Shown here: piece after piece, positions 14,801 through 55,995 of the stretch | Layout: the number at the start of each line of letters is the position of its first letter | Position numbering within the stretch: position 1 is the first letter of the stretch | DNA from: Paraspadella gotoi | Lineage: Eukaryota > Animalia > Chaetognatha | Direction of reading: 5' to 3' | Length of the DNA: 64,000 nt | Assembly: GCA_051294375.1 (NCBI GenBank) | Contig: CM119269.1 | Location: forward strand, 5,467,609 to 5,531,608 | Made by a program: the position numbers and the translations under genes | Notes under the pieces: generated by a model | The model's database searches: none | Told to the model about the DNA's origin: nothing | Seen by the model: only the letters and a program-made list of their open reading frames with translations

Positions 14801-17800
14801 TAGGATTAGTGTCTAGTAATAGTTTTTAATTGATTCAGTCTTGCATACCAGATAGAAAATAATAAAACAAAATAGATTTAATAATTTATTCATTGTGAAA
14901 GAGCACTGTGCAAACATGTTTTTATTATTATTAGATGCTGTCATGTTTCGAGTGATGGAGGCCTTAAACCACCAAAGCCTGTCCAAAGTCAGGAGCAAGA
15001 TAGCTTATTTATTAAATGAATGGATAATTTTTATATTGGTTGTACATAGTATTGGTGATTAACATCGTTTTATGAGGAAAACGCATATTATTTTTATTTG
15101 AGCAATATATTTCAATATATTAACCGAAATAAAAATAAAAAAGAGTGGCGAGGTGGACCGATATAGAATCAATATTCCATAAAGGAATTAAAGATTGGTA
15201 ATATATTATTCCAATGTCAAGTCTAATTTTAGTATAGACCAATGTTTTCTTAAATATTCACAAATATGAGATGTTGACAGCCTCAGTGATTCCTCAAGAA
15301 TTTGAGTCCAACTAATTTATTACCTTTGCATTATTTTTCCTTTAACTTTTCAATTTCTTTTCCATCTTGTATTTCAATCTGACCTAAAACTTCAGCTATC
15401 CTCACCCTCTAATTGTTGACTTTCCCTTAACCCTTTATTGGAAGCTTTATCTCACCTATTCATTCTCATTCTCTCTCTCTCTCTCTCTCTCTCTCTCTCT
15501 CTCTCTCTCTCTTCTGAACTTTTGACTTGCTAAAGTTTAATACTTCAAAACTGTCAAATGCACTGATGAAGAACCAAATATTATTGTTCGAAACATGTCT
15601 GCATCTAATAATAATAAAATTTCGTTGTTTCTCATTTATAATCTTACAAAAAGTTATAGCGAGCAGCAGCTAATCACCTGCAAGTAGTAAATGTCGACTC
15701 CCTGTGCGTTGGCCTCAGCGTCTTCGATGGTGGACGGCACGTACCCGCAAACTTGCCACATGAAACCGAAGTAACTGTGGTCAAAGACGTTTTTATCCTG
15801 CAAAAACTGGCCATTGTCTTGGGCGATCCAATCCCCCAGTTCTTTGTTGAGTTGACGAAGACCAATTTCTTTGGTGAGTGGCGACGGTGAACCGAAAATC
15901 GGTTCTTCGTCGGGAACTTTGTCTACGAGCAAAAAAAGAAACAGTACGCAGATTATTCATGACCCGTTAAGAAATAAAGTAATCAGAACATGAACCGAAA
16001 TTGGCAGACACAAACCTGAAGCGGAAGCAACCTCTTCCGACTGCGAGTCCGCCCGGATGGAAGTCACGCGCTCATAAAAGAGCATGTAAGCGCTGTTGGT
16101 TTTTTCAAAAGAAAAGTCCATGAACTTGTCGGTGACTTGATCGTAGGTCTTGGAGGTAAGTTCACCACCGAAACACTCTGCCGGGATTTGATGAGGATCG
16201 AAGGGTTTCACCTCGGCGTCGTTAAACAAAAACCAACGGTCTTGATAGACGCCAGTCTCAAAGGATCCGCTGCTGCTTGGAAATATATGGGGAAGATGAT
16301 AAATAAGGGAGAATAAAAAAAATTCATATCTAAATTTCCACCTGCTGGACGTGTCCGACATAGATCTCCGGTCGCGAATAAAGGAATAATAATGTCCCCC
16401 GTCCGCCGTGCCCGTGTGGACCGTAACTCCGATGAGTTCGTACTCCGTCGTCCCCTCGATGCTGTCTTCCTCCGTCTCGTCCGCTTCACCAGGGATATTT
16501 TCATCTTTGGACTGAATCATAAAATAATGAACTTAATTTTAACGAATTATTGATTGTTATTGTCTTTCAACAACCTAACAGTAATTTAGTTAGAATCGAT
16601 AAATAATCTTTAGTTGCGCCGCGAGTACTCGCGGAGCATCTCATTAAAAAGGCTTATAACTGGGGTGATACTTCATTAATTTAATTAATTTTTTGTATGA
16701 AAGTAAGGTAACATAAGATCATATCATATCATATATCATACTAATGAAGTTAAGTGATCACTTTAAAAAATATCGCATGACCCAAAATTTAATGGGGTTT
16801 AAATTTTGTAAAAAATCGAATTGAGGTTAGTACCGAAGAGGAATCTTTTCTCGGACTTGCGGCCGGCGACTTGCTGCCAAGGAGTACTTTCTCCGTGTAG
16901 CCGCTCATGTCTAACGACATGGGAAAGGTAAAGTGGGTGTTGACTTTCTCCTTGGTCATCGTTAACATGTTGAAGGTATAACGCATGGTGTTGAAGCAGA
17001 GAATTCGCGGCAAGGTCTTGAAACAGGCCCGTTTTTCGGCGCGGACCTGAATGTGGAAAAGAAATAAGGAAAATAAGAAAAACACTTCCATTAGTAAAGG
17101 TACTACAATGTATAAATGTGATTGAAGAACTCAATCTCATTCGAAATAAATCGTAAGTTACTCTGCAACAGGTTCTCATTTTAGGCAATAATAAAAGGAA
17201 GAGAGAGAGAGAAATTTCCCTCTCCGTTCGCGAGTGACTCCAAAAAAATAAAAAAATTTTAAAAAATCTTTCTCATCTTAGAACAAAGTTCAAAACAGTA
17301 AATAAATAAAACACGAAATAAAACAAAACGAAATAATACTTATACACAAAAAAAGTCCAGCAGTTTTCAAACTAATGATATACTTATGAATTATTCTTAT
17401 TTTTAAAGCATAGTAAAAATTATTTTGGTGTTGGCAAATGGACACAGAGTATAAAGGTTTCCAACAAAGAATTGAGAAAAGGACTGGGGTAGACTGAGGA
17501 CAGGTGAAGAGTGAAGACAAATAGAATGAGGGAGAGTGAAAGATAAAAGACTAGTCAGATTATTGAGTTATTGACACAGTACATAAATTTAAAAATGAAA
17601 TATTGAAATTATTAAAAGTTTACAATCATTAACTTTGGACCCAAGTACTAACTGTGAGCTCACCTTTTTTTCACACTTGTCACAGGTGTACATGTTATCG
17701 CCTTCCAGCGTGTCCTTGACCGTGACCTCGTCCAGAGACTCGTAGAGGTTCTTCATGTCGGCGACCTGACATCTCACGGTGTAAAACTCCTCGGCGGTTT

Positions 17801-20800
17801 GGGAAACGTGGTCGCAGTCAAGGCTGACTACATTGTTTGTGATGACGCCCCCAAAGAGGTCCTTAACGAGGCTCTTAAGATCACCGCTCATCTCCTCCAT
17901 CTTTGAAATGAGGTCTGTGAAGAACTCAGTCATGTCCTTCTGCTCGCCCGTGTTTAAAGGCTGTTTGTCCATTGTGTAGACTTTGCAGAAGGACTTAGGG
18001 TTGAAGGATTTTCGTTCCGAGGCCGCCAGAAAGGCAAACATGCGCTGAAGCTCGGCCAGAATCTTTTTGTGCGGCGACGAATCGTTGGGTGAGGCCACCA
18101 GAATTCCTTTTCGTGCTGGCGGAATCATGAAAAGGTGCTGCATGCAGGACGCCATGTAGCAAGTCGCCCCAAGGTTGGTGAGACCGACGAAGCCGCAGCC
18201 CGATCTCGCCTCCTCCTCCGGCCAATAATCCCAGGGAAAAGAGCGATCGTGGGTCTCCTTGCAGTGCTGTCGCATCAGCTTGTCCACCAGCACGACGAAG
18301 TTGGAGAAACTACCCTTAACCAGCTCGATCATGACGTCGTAGCAAGCAGAGCGAATGGGCGAGGCGGACGAAGATCTTGAGTTGCACTTAGATTGACTCG
18401 CCTGACCAATGAGCGCCGAGTGTCGTCGAGATGACGCGTTGGGCGAAAGATAAGAAGGAACCGAAGAGAAAAGGGAATTGAAAATAAAGGAGAGAAAAGA
18501 GCGACCCTCGGCGCCGAACTTAAAGGAAGGATTGTGCTTGAGGCAAGCCGTGAGGAGAGAGATGGTTCCGTTGAGTCCGAGATCGTCATGCGCGCTCGGC
18601 GAGGCGAGGGAGAAAGTCTTGAGGGTGGGTACCATAGCGGTGGCGTCTTCACTCACGGGATCGTCGAGGTCGACGTCGTCACCCCCTCTCAAAGCCGCCT
18701 CGCTCCCTTCCTCCGCCTTTTCCCCCTTTATGCTTTTGGCGAGAGCGCGCGCGAGGCTGTCCACATCGACGACCTGCGCCGTTTCGTAGGCCTCCTTAGG
18801 CAGGTGGTCGATGAGGCGAGAAACGAGCCAGAAATAATCCTTGGAGCTCGGGCCGAAGGGATCTTTTCCGCCTGGACGGTCCTCGACCGGTTCCAACACG
18901 GAGGGCAATGTTATAGTCTGGGCAAAAGGGAGCGACCGTAGGAGGTCGCCGAGGAAGCGCGGGAGAAAGAGTTTCCCCGGGTTGGAGTTGACGGAAGCTG
19001 GGGACGAACCGGGCTCCGCCACGACGGTGCCCATGATCAACCGGTAAAGTCCAAAGCAGGCTTCTTTACGGATGTTGGGTTCCGGAGCGTCGACTAGGAT
19101 GGCCTTAAGCCAGGAGCGCAGACGCGGTCGCTCCATGAAGCGGAGATGAGCCTCTGGCACGGAAAAAGCGACCGCGACGAGTAGGGAGAGGGCGTGTCGC
19201 ACAACTTCCGCTTGACCCCAGAAGCCGACGCTGAGAACCGAGGGCGAGCGTAAGGACAGACAAGAGCAAGCGTCCATGAGAAGATCAATGATCTGGGAGC
19301 GAAATGAAACGAAATTAGCGTCTACTCGCGTAAATAATTACGTTCTTTTTATCTATGTTATCATTTTTCCTATCCCCTTCTTACCCTCGGAAGGTCAATG
19401 AGTGAAAAAAAAGAATGGTTTAGCCTTGGCACCATGAGACTTTCCGCGGCGTAACCTTTCCCTTTCTTAAGCTTTTTTGGTCTCAATCCTCCAAACCACC
19501 CTTCGTTGACGGGGGAAGAGTCGACGAATGGGAAGTCGCTTGCATCTGCTAATTCAAAGGAATTAAACAAAATGAATAAGTTAATCTGATTTGCGCATAT
19601 GTCTTATAAAAGAATTTCGGACAGTGATTACAATTTACAAACATACGTATTTGCTAACCCCTCACCTTTGTCGGGAGTCACGTTCCCTGGAGGAAGTCGG
19701 AAAGTGGCGAAATGAAAGAGCAGGCTAAGGAGGTAAGCGAGAGAGTCCTGCGTCCACTCGTTAGCGGTTTCCGCATGGTCGGGCAAAAGCTTACGCGAGT
19801 AAAGAATGTTGAGAAGATGTTCGAGCCCGCCGCTGCGAATGAATGACTGCGACCAGAGGCGATGGCAGTTGTCACCGACCACTGTAGACGAGACTCCCTC
19901 GATGGAGGAGGATCTAAATACATTAAATCGTTAAATTTCAATCCTTAAATTTATATATCAATGATTTAATTTAATGAGAAGAAACAAATTAGTCGTCTTA
20001 CCTCAGCGGCTTGGAAAGATATTCGATAATCTGCAGAGAGTACATGAGCTTGTGAGGATTTTCGGGCTGAAGCAAAGAGGAGAAGTCGACGCTCGTTCCG
20101 TCGGTCGTCGTCAAATTCTGAAAAGTCGCCAGCATTTTCGGCGAAGTCGGCAACATCATGAGGAGTTCCCAAACTTTGCGCGACATGAGCTGAACGCGAT
20201 GGTATTTGCTCAAGAAAATATCTTCTTTGTTGCAAGAGACCTGGGAAGAAAAACGATGCCGGATCGTGTTCGCAATGTTAAGGTTAAATCACACCATTCC
20301 ATTGCCAATTATCACACTAATACCTGAAGAGAGCAAAGTTGATGGAGTAAATGGAGAAGTTGATCGAAAAATGGTTCCTGCAACAACAACAGCATGGGCA
20401 ATTTGTCTATGGGAGGCGAAGGAAAGCACGAGGTCGGAACGCCACTGTTGTTGGTCGAACCGAGTAAAGAGAGGCCTGCTCTCAGATTTCGTTTTGCGCC
20501 TGCGAATAAGAAAATAAGGTAAGAATTGAAGCGGAATCAAGCTTCTACTTTATTTCTTTCTCACCTATGCGATTGGCCGGGTTGCAGATGCTCACGTAGA
20601 TCTTTTCCTGCACTTGACAAGAATCTTTGAAGCCGATTTCCCGTAGTGACTTCTCGTCGAGATCGTGACCTGAGAAAGAGGAAAATGGAATGCGTCGGGT
20701 TTGAAAGTAAAAATTGAGAGAAGAATTGGCGCGGAGCATTCACCGATTTCTTTCCCCTGAGCCAATAGTCTAAAGGGAGGAGCCTCGTCGAGGTGGAGAT

Positions 20801-55918: not shown

Positions 55919-55919
55919 T

Positions 55920-55995
55920 AGCAGTTAAGAGGGACGGGGCGCTTAACCCGCCTGTAACACGGTGTTACAGCCTGATCCGAAGCTCAGGGACTGCT
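55920..55995 (+). ncRNA. Putative twister ribozyme, permuted type P5 variant (family B), fused 3' of the tRNA-like head
   Basis: P5 AGCAGTT/GACTGCT; AA; P2' GAGG; GA; CGGG; GCGCT; T^AA (55944/55945); P2 CCC; GC; P3 CTGTAACAC/GTGTTACAG; P4 CCTGA/TCAGG with loop TCCG-AA-GC. CGGG:TCCG and GC:GC form the two pseudoknots. Confidence 0.8.

What the first reader, a model, noticed from the sequence alone, without database searches (positions are those of the whole stretch)
14937..55995. A shared non-canonical twister ribozyme architecture in two unrelated repeat families, supported by covariation
Known: the twister core is P1-U^AA-P2-(2 nt)-P3-P4[loop NNNN-AA-NN]-(P5)-AA-P2'-GA-NNNN-P1', with a 4-bp and a 2-bp pseudoknot, cleavage at U^A, and permutations P1/P3/P5. 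Seen: 14937-15004, 24372-24435 and 55920-55995 all read P5-(2 nt)-P2'-GA-PK4-(5 nt)-UAA-P2-PK2-P3-P4-P5'. Families A and B differ in sequence but keep the pairing: 4-bp pseudoknot TGGA:TCCA vs CGGG:TCCG, 2-bp pseudoknot AC:GT vs GC:GC, P2 ACC:GAGT vs CCC:GAGG. Both share two departures from the textbook fold. P1 is reduced to a 5-nt connector (GGCCT / GCGCT), and P2 is 3 bp with a bulged A on the P2' strand. Inference: a distinct near-P1-less, bulged-P2 twister subclass spread by short retroelements, which standard covariance models may miss. I cannot check whether it has been described.
Basis: partly seen in the sequence, partly recalled or inferred. Interest (0 to 1): 0.92.

Follow-up and report, generated by a model that had tools for sequence, protein, structure and literature searches.

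The report
Palindrome-capped minimal twister ribozyme variant
Short mobile repeats in this animal genome carry an RNA with the fold and catalytic bases of the self-cutting twister ribozyme, but its first helix is shrunk to a six-letter self-complementary word, so it likely cuts best when two copies pair, as small hammerheads of Penelope elements do; cutting is untested.

Summary
The three motifs are real type-P5 twister folds. A descriptor finds two intact cores in the window and none in 628 shuffles; Rfam misses all at its cut-off. T1 is 3 bp plus A·A, so the P1 connector is 6 nt, not 5, and it is self-complementary: AGGCCU (A), GGCGCU (B). A metagenome scan that left the connector free found a third family with the same bulged P2 and the palindrome CAAUUG. 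None of 71 other pattern hits had a Watson-Crick palindrome there. Family A is a high-copy 270-nt repeat; copy A1 is fused to a Penelope-type minimal hammerhead tail. B follows a tRNA-like head; its copy number is unknown. Published Naiad consensus tails hold related, unannotated twisters (6 of 41 read; 3 with the bulged P2). Best reading: a twister variant of Penelope-dependent elements, likely most active as a strand-swapped dimer. Cleavage is untested, and P1 is dispensable in known twisters, so a monomer remains plausible. My searches found no paper on it. This scan noted related, longer-palindrome twisters in Naiad tails of other genomes.

The parts
14920..14951 (-). Inverted 3' half and tail of the minimal hammerhead at 15558-15619, joined to A1 with a 2-nt overlap (Penelope-type inverted truncated piece, inferred)
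   Evidence: 32-nt inverted repeat, 30 of 32 identical; the + arm is a hammerhead half
14950..15045 (+). Copy A1: 5'-truncated family A. Twister core intact from P2' (G14954; T1' 14956-58; connector AGGCCU 14959-64; U^A 14965/6; P2 14968-70; T2 14971-72; P4-L4-P4' to 14993), P5 5' strand missing
   Evidence: Rfam Twister-P5 25.8 bits against a cut-off of 37.6
15558..15604 (+). Minimal type-I hammerhead (stem I 5 bp, CUGAUGA, stem II 4 bp, GAA, helix III = 6-nt palindrome ACAUGU, predicted cut after C15599)
   Evidence: own descriptor; no Rfam hammerhead hit
24219..24488 (+). Copy A2: about 270-nt family A element, sharp 3' end at 24486-88, AT-rich flanks, antisense in an intron of a USP34-like gene
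   Evidence: 22,880, 3,867 and 1,312 contigs of three runs laid, nearly all depth at 24218-24505; fold z -2.85; host gene domains
24373..24434 (+). Twister A2: P5 8 bp (24373-80/24427-34), G24387, connector AGGCCU 24392-97, U^A 24398/9; damaged at 24415 and 24425
55835..56008 (+). Unit B: an outer 8-bp helix (55835-42/56001-08) is predicted to enclose a tRNA-like head and the twister
   Evidence: fold of 55810-56015, z -3.34
55846..55917 (+). tRNA-like head: 7-bp acceptor stem, 72-nt span, T-arm with B-box-like word; decayed
   Evidence: only hit of an own post hoc descriptor in the window, 0.22 per shuffled window; not found by ARAGORN or Rfam
55920..55995 (+). Twister B, intact: P5 7 bp, G55933, T1' 55935-37, connector GGCGCU 55938-43, U^A 55944/5, P2 55947-49, T2 55950-51, P3 hairpin, P4 5 bp closed by A-U
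   Evidence: not found by Rfam at E up to 10

Best explanation
These are type-P5 twister folds with a 3-bp bulged P2 and a 6-nt self-complementary P1 connector, carried by short non-coding repeats that are likely mobilised by Penelope-like elements, and they are predicted to cut best as strand-swapped dimers. Steps: (1) SHOWN in sequence: catalytic G, U^AA, both pseudoknots, P2, P4 and P5 are present and covary among three families. (2) SHOWN: the connector is a palindrome in 3 of 3 families, central pair included. (3) INFERRED from twister chemistry: G as general base and A as general acid would cut at U^A, leaving a 2',3'-cyclic phosphate and a 5'-OH. (4) INFERRED: in a head-to-tail transcript two connectors would form one shared 6-bp P1, so each active site would join the GA/T1' half of one copy with the UAA/P2/L4 half of the other. 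Tandem or rolling-circle RNA would be cut to unit length, while lone genomic copies would cut weakly. (5) INFERRED: the unit RNA would be copied back by a Penelope-like reverse transcriptase; family B would be a tRNA-promoter version like the Schistosoma hammerhead SINEs.
For: Descriptor: 2 hits in the window, 0 in 628 shuffles. Pair counts on 4 sequences: 61 of 63 cells paired, 9 of 16 pairs change on both sides, 0 of 500 shuffles reach this, and all 3 connector pairs change on both sides. Out-of-sample test: the connector was N6 in the metagenome pattern; 1 of 4 hits (L001) met every free pairing and its connector is a perfect palindrome, a 1-in-64 event for a random hexamer. Background: 0 of 71 distinct connectors of other pattern hits were Watson-Crick palindromes, 4 of 71 with G·U. 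The central pair cannot form within one strand, yet it is GC, CG and AU. Energies: 1 bp plus tetraloop costs +4.1 to +5.6 kcal/mol; the homoduplex gives -9.1 (A), -8.3 (B), -3.0 (L001). Precedent: Penelope hammerheads have a 1-2 bp helix III with a palindromic loop and work as dimers (PMC4209133, PMC6765202, PMC7229834 passages). Context: a minimal hammerhead with a 6-nt palindromic helix III lies 550 nt from A1 and its inverted tail is fused to A1. Family A has a sharp 3' end, varied 5' ends and AT-rich flanks. Naiad consensus tails (File S5 of PMC8557442, read by eye) hold P5 twisters in 6 of 41 records, 3 with the same 3-nt P2 and bulge, all with palindromic words in the connector. L001 is one twister in a 974-nt unit with a 123-nt terminal repeat.
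Against: No cleavage data. P1 is dispensable and P1/P2 imperfections are tolerated in tested twisters (PMC5408937; PMC11662667), so a monomer closed by 1-2 bp may cut well. Only three families carry the 6-nt form, two share a genome and perhaps an ancestor, and the palindrome idea was formed on A and B. The pair counts use a structure drawn from these sequences, and L001 was chosen by a pattern built on them. One viral-collection locus (L037) also meets P2, T1, T2, P4 and a possible 5-bp P5 with a non-palindromic connector AGAUAU (17.5 bits); it is 1 of 44 distinct hits and may be chance, but if real it counts against. The L001 duplex is weak. No reverse transcriptase or endonuclease match was found among the 22 window frames scanned, so the helper is unidentified, and no full tandem of A or B was seen (only partial 'goes back' joints). 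A review cites the view that changing P2 length may disturb the active site. B closes P4 with A-U where G-C is described as nearly invariant.
Confidence: 0.55

Rival explanations
1. A monomer-active minimal twister: the connector is simply the smallest cap (1 bp plus tetraloop, or 2 bp plus 2 nt), and full palindromy is a by-product. Each copy would cut its own transcript.
For: P1 can be deleted with near wild-type rate; P1 length and stability did not predict cleavage in a test of 1,948 natural twisters; six nucleotides can plausibly span the T1'-to-U gap (inference from the fold); L037, if real, lacks the second pair.
Against: It does not explain why the two central bases are complementary in 3 of 3 families (13 of 71 in background), nor the palindromic words in 6 of 6 Naiad twisters. 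The hairpin costs 4-6 kcal/mol. Family A keeps sequence upstream of the cut site in very many copies, which fits weak monomer cutting.
Confidence: 0.3
2. A twister-derived fold that no longer cuts (shortened P2, no P1) and serves as a structural or protein-binding signal of the element.
For: P2 is one nucleotide short, and the twister review warns that P2 length may matter; Penelope minimal hammerheads cut poorly in vitro even as dimers; two of three window copies are damaged.
Against: Catalytic G, U^AA, the L4 U and AA and both pseudoknots are kept in all three families; bulged and canonical P2 alternate among related Naiad twisters; P2 imperfections were tolerated in tests.
Confidence: 0.1
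3. A 5'-end-processing twister of an RTE-type LINE or its SINE, like the T-variants of Schistosoma Perere-3, unrelated to Penelope elements.
For: Twister variants with weak P1 sit at the 5' end of Perere-3 (PMC8501958 abstract and one section); truncated twisters at RTE 5' ends are mentioned as unpublished (PMC7761336); B has a tRNA-like head as SINEs do.
Against: Those are type-P1 forms whose cut lies at the element's 5' edge. Here the form is type P5 and the cut lies about 90 nt from the 3' end of family A, with about 180 nt of element upstream. A1 is fused to a Penelope-type hammerhead tail.
Confidence: 0.05

Closest known systems
Type-P5 twister ribozyme (Rfam RF02684; review PMC5408937, passages read; Roth et al. 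2014 not held)
   Same: Strand order, GA and UAA of L1, 3-bp T1 plus A·A, 2-bp T2, L4 with U..AA, P4, termini in P5.
   Different: P2 5' strand is 3 nt with a bulge opposite; P1 is a 6-nt palindrome without a loop (the Rfam model deletes its 14-nt P1 loop); scores of 24-26 bits are below the 37.6 cut-off.
Minimal dimer-acting hammerheads of Penelope-like elements and animal retrozymes (PMC4209133, PMC7229834, PMC6765202, passages read)
   Same: One helix next to the cut site is reduced to 1 bp plus a palindromic tetraloop; carried near the 3' end of short repeats; an example lies in this window at 15558-15604.
   Different: Different ribozyme class; dimer cleavage was tested for hammerheads and is only inferred here.
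Naiad Penelope-like elements (PMC8557442, passages and supplementary File S5 tails read)
   Same: Reported to lack canonical hammerheads and often to prefer (TA)n targets; 6 of 41 consensus tails read hold a P5 twister that the passages I read do not mention; three have the 3-nt bulged P2, and two share T2 and P4 sequence with family A.
   Different: Naiad connectors are 20-23 nt with two self-complementary words and the bulge is U or C; here it is one 6-nt word and an A bulge. No Naiad ORF is linked to family A or B.
T-variant twisters of Schistosoma Perere-3 (PMC8501958, abstract and section 17)
   Same: Twister with an imperfect P1 in a retroelement.
   Different: Type P1, canonical 4-bp P2, located at the 5' end, P1 completed by the target site.
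Schistosoma SINE-like hammerhead repeats (PMC6765202, passage)
   Same: Polymerase III-type promoter followed by a ribozyme, as inferred for unit B.
   Different: Twister in place of hammerhead; repeat nature and transcription of B are not shown.

Membership tests
Twister ribozyme, type P5 | Conserved L1 (GA and U^AA) and L4 (U, AA) nucleotides | tested here: met
   A1, B and L001 complete; A2 lacks the L4 U but most family contigs have it
Twister ribozyme, type P5 | Double pseudoknot, T1 3 bp and T2 2 bp | tested here: met
   all cells paired; one pair of each changes on both sides
Twister ribozyme, type P5 | P2 of four Watson-Crick pairs | tested here: not met
   3 bp plus one bulged A in 3 of 3 families
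Twister ribozyme, type P5 | P1 hairpin stem | tested here: not met
   6-nt palindrome, no stable hairpin within one strand
Twister ribozyme, type P5 | P4 stem and termini in P5 | tested here: met
   P4 4-5 bp; P5 8, 7 and 6 bp in A2, B, L001; absent in truncated A1
Twister ribozyme, type P5 | Reaches Rfam RF02684 gathering score | tested here: not met
   A1 25.8 and L001 24.2 against 37.6; A2 and B no hit at E up to 10
Twister ribozyme, type P5 | Site-specific self-cleavage at U^A | not testable with these tools
   needs in vitro cleavage or cyclic-phosphate sequencing
Dimer-acting ribozymes (minimal hammerhead model) | Helix reduced to 1-2 bp with a palindromic loop | tested here: met
   3 of 3 families; 0 of 71 background
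Dimer-acting ribozymes (minimal hammerhead model) | Tandem copies in one transcript | tested here: inconclusive
   L001 has a 123-nt terminal repeat (circle or tandem); family A shows only partial back-joints; B unknown
Dimer-acting ribozymes (minimal hammerhead model) | Dimer cuts faster than monomer | not testable with these tools
   bench test
Penelope-like element terminus or Penelope-dependent retrozyme | High copy, fixed 3' end, varied 5' ends, inverted truncated pieces | tested here: met
   family A
Penelope-like element terminus or Penelope-dependent retrozyme | Linked RT plus GIY-YIG ORF or shared 3' end with one | tested here: inconclusive
   no match among 22 window frames; family A open frame has no Pfam or library match; no genome held
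Naiad clade | N-terminal GIY-YIG plus RT ORF | not testable with these tools
   no ORF available; only the ribozyme resembles those in Naiad tails
tRNA-derived SINE (unit B) | tRNA-derived head with A and B boxes | tested here: inconclusive
   own descriptor positive; ARAGORN and Rfam negative; A box poor by eye
tRNA-derived SINE (unit B) | Interspersed multiple copies | not tested
   single in the window; genome-wide copy number not measured

The most novel reading that the evidence does not exclude
The first natural obligate-dimer twister: a lineage of Penelope-associated twisters that replaced P1 by a palindrome, converging on the dimer switch of minimal hammerheads, so that cleavage counts copies and fires only in tandem or rolling-circle RNA. 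It would span long Naiad forms, a 6-nt minimal form in non-coding repeats and a tRNA-headed unit, and a 974-nt circular or tandem element of an unknown organism.
Probability: 0.35. Interest if true: 0.82.

Novelty: new variant of a known kind. Interest (0 to 1): 0.62.

Why it matters
If the dimer reading holds, two unrelated ribozyme classes reached the same control trick in the same group of retroelements. That makes the open question of what ribozymes do in Penelope-like elements testable, and it may explain why some hammerhead-free Naiads thrive. It would also give a roughly 45-60 nt twister switched by self-pairing. Even as a monomer it is a high-copy twister form that Rfam misses, so twister counts in animal genomes are likely too low.

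Tried and rejected
Whole-genome search: no genome held. Other collections: strict pattern 0 in viral contigs; 2 in prokaryote genomes, both failing pairing; 3 of 4 metagenome hits failed pairing. Relaxed viral scans: 67 loci, 44 distinct, one open candidate L037; 21 loci, 17 distinct, none meeting all pairings; canonical-P2 scan, 18 loci, gave only type-P1 phage twisters as real hits. Covariation among family A copies: inconclusive; one search lists 40 of 142 differences and one search reported only four central positions. Expression: no RNA holder listed; run X9 is only guessed to be RNA. Runs of two other organisms held no family A cover. Family A as the coding end of an endonuclease: an open frame crosses the element but had no Pfam match below E 0.26 and no hit among 1.84 billion representatives; the atlas gave no answer; dropped. 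The 32-nt inverted repeat as a MITE end: rejected, it is a hammerhead half. Further copies in the window: none beyond the three. L001 as a rod-like viroid-like RNA: not supported (60% paired, about 1.5 sd below 15 shuffles; no Pfam match below E 0.23 for 6 of 11 frames). Host lineage: an animal gene set, but the protein tested is only 34-41% identical over its length to named animals; unresolved. Exact motif searches in the Naiad supplement found no copy of the window's sequence. Roth 2014, Eiler 2014 and Lunse 2017 were not held.

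
Full report
SETTING. The window is gene-dense animal DNA with long exons; all Pfam-matched genes lie on the - strand. One conserved protein is 34-41% identical over its length to named animals, so the lineage is unresolved. 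No genome is held. A1 and A2 lie antisense in introns of a USP34-like gene (DUF3517, UCH and ARM pieces between 8791 and 27939; intron positions inferred from the gaps between reading frames); B lies about 430 nt upstream of a DUF498 gene on the other strand. None would cut the host transcript.

OBSERVATION. Rfam gives only a sub-threshold Twister-P5 match for A1 (25.8 bits, cut-off 37.6, E 0.32) and nothing for A2 or B at E up to 10. A descriptor that fixes only GA, UAA and U..AA and asks for P2, T1, T2 and P4 pairing gave three window hits. Two are A1 and B, each with a 3-nt P2 strand, a bulge and a 6-nt connector; the third is an AT-rich hit with a 30-nt connector. In 628 shuffles there were 0.21 hits per window and none of the bulged/6-nt kind. 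A model built from the copies finds no further copy in the window. A2 fails the descriptor because it carries two changes (24415, 24425) that most family contigs lack. A1 is 5'-truncated at 14950.

REGISTER. The twister review states that T1 is three Watson-Crick pairs plus a trans A·A pair, that the L4 U pairs with an L4 A, that P2 is four pairs, and that P1 can be removed with near wild-type rate (PMC5408937, passages). With a 3-bp T1 the connector between T1' and U^AA is six nucleotides: AGGCCU in A and GGCGCU in B. Both are self-complementary, B with terminal G·U pairs. I noted this before any outside search for it (note).

OUT-OF-SAMPLE TEST. I scanned public collections with a pattern that left the connector as N6. 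Viral contigs gave 0 hits, metagenome contigs 4, prokaryote genomes 2. One of these six, L001, met every free pairing: P2 CCC/G(A)GG, T1 CCA/UGG, T2 GC/GC, a 5-bp P4 and a 6-bp P5. Its connector is CAAUUG. Among 71 distinct connectors of all other pattern hits, none was a Watson-Crick palindrome, 4 were with G·U, and 13 had a complementary centre. L001 is a 1,097-nt contig of unknown organism with a 123-nt terminal repeat, so a 974-nt circle or tandem unit; it is not rod-like, scores 24.2 bits on Twister-P5 and has no Pfam match in 6 of 11 frames tested. On the four-sequence alignment, 61 of 63 cells pair and 9 of 16 pairs change on both sides, including all three connector pairs. This rests on three families and a structure drawn from them, so it is no R-scape result. 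One viral locus, L037, also meets the core pairings with a non-palindromic connector; it is 1 of 44 distinct hits of a loose pattern and is left open.

THE CARRIERS. Family A is a high-copy repeat: 22,880, 3,867 and 1,312 contigs of three runs of the same organism were laid on the 701-nt stretch, with depth concentrated at 24218-24505, a sharp 3' end at 24486-88, varied 5' ends and AT-rich flanks; a run of another organism gave one unrelated contig. The tool's depth is no copy number. The element folds better than shuffles (z -2.85), with a long helix enclosing an upstream hairpin and the twister. The 32-nt inverted repeat around A1 is the 3' half and tail of a minimal type-I hammerhead at 15558-15604 whose helix III is itself a 6-nt palindrome; the inverted piece overlaps A1 by two bases. 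Inverted truncated pieces are typical of Penelope-like insertions (PMC8557442, passages), so A1 probably entered in such an event (inference). B follows, after 2 nt, a 72-nt tRNA-like structure, the only hit of an own descriptor, not recognised by ARAGORN or Rfam; an outer helix is predicted to enclose both (z -3.34). B is single in the window and its copy number is open. An open frame across family A gave no protein match.

RELATIVES IN PRINT DATA. Naiad Penelope-like elements are reported to lack canonical hammerheads. I read by eye the last 330-380 characters of 41 consensus records in File S5 (the metadata sheet lists 54 families). Six hold a type-P5 twister core: Naiad-1_Movir, Mgal, Bpla, Mphi, Scon and Mmer (names taken from the preceding header). 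Mgal, Bpla and Mphi have a 3-nt P2 strand with a bulged U or C at the same place; the other three have a canonical 4-bp P2, and Mmer's P2' strand equals family A's. Their connectors are 20-23 nt and consist of two self-complementary words. The other 35 tails showed no twister by eye. These sequences were not put through any tool. An earlier scan note pointed me to the clam records; I had opened the paper and its supplement already.

MECHANISM. A 1-bp stem with a tetraloop costs 4.1-5.6 kcal/mol, while two connectors form a 6-bp duplex of -9.1, -8.3 and -3.0 kcal/mol. The central pair cannot form within one strand, yet it is complementary in all three families. Animal hammerheads with a 1-2 bp helix III and a palindromic loop cut poorly alone and better as dimers (PMC4209133, PMC7229834, PMC6765202, passages). 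The best-supported model is the same switch in a twister: two copies in one transcript would share a 6-bp P1, each site built from halves of different copies, releasing unit-length RNA for a Penelope-like enzyme. Shown: fold, covariation, palindromes, repeat nature of A, link to a hammerhead tail. Inferred: cleavage, dimer, tandem transcription, helper. The main rival is a monomer-active minimal twister, since P1 and P2 imperfections did not reduce cleavage in a test of 1,948 natural twisters (PMC11662667, section 32 part 1 and sections 35 and 38).

NOVELTY. Searches of the held library for twister with palindromic/dimer/minimal, with Penelope/hammerhead/palindromic, with Penelope-like/pLTR, with Naiad (0 papers), with SINE terms (top 20 of 92 listed, none naming twister), type P5 and RTE gave no description of this form; these are listings plus the passages cited. 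The CHiTA text has no 'palindrom', but its supplement could not be read, and Roth 2014 with its alignments was not held; either could contain such sequences. Truncated twisters at RTE 5' ends are mentioned as unpublished, and T-variants of Perere-3 are known. Earlier unchecked notes of this scan report related twisters, two with a dimer idea, in Naiad tails of other genomes; no look-alike of family A was noted.

VERDICT. A real, recurring variant of the type-P5 twister. It works like a twister by every sequence test, but fails two textbook features (4-bp P2, hairpin P1), so I file it as a new variant and not a plain member. Interest 0.62; the obligate-dimer reading has probability about 0.35 and would merit 0.82.

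Noticed in passing
window 15558-15604 (+), with inverted tail at 14920-14951: Penelope-type minimal hammerhead with a 6-nt palindromic helix III, not recognised by Rfam.
   Followed up: partly
window 55500-63100: Cluster of diverged AT-rich repeats with telomere-like (TTAGGG-type) runs and hammerhead-like motifs at 57121 (-) and 60146 (-); it may be remnants of telomere-associated Penelope-like elements, and unit B sits among them.
   Followed up: partly
window 58588-58611 (-): 24-nt match to the extreme 3' tail of family A, probably a very short truncated copy.
   Followed up: no
window 10535-10982 and 12346-12791: Long inverted repeat, about 450 nt at 84% identity, in an intron; probably a DNA transposon or fold-back element.
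   Followed up: no
window 38246-38364: Long hairpin with weak microRNA-family scores far below cut-off; probably a small inverted-repeat element.
   Followed up: no
L017 279-378 (-), L022 260-359 (+), L010 280-330 (-): Viral contigs with type-P1 twisters; L017 and L022 hold two twisters head to tail with very short P1 segments, all below the Rfam cut-off.
   Followed up: no
L037 64-129 (-): Possible twister variant with a 3-nt P2 and a non-palindromic 6-nt connector in a viral contig; may be chance.
   Followed up: partly
L001 (whole contig): 974-nt circular or tandem unit with one twister and no recognised protein; host and nature (RNA circle or DNA repeat) unknown.
   Followed up: partly
window 24225-24488 (+): A reading frame with a single internal stop runs through family A and its ribozyme; no protein match, probably chance.
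   Followed up: yes
File S5 of PMC8557442 (oyster, pearl oyster and hemichordate Naiad tails): These tails share a different conserved structured-looking motif that is not a twister by eye.
   Followed up: no
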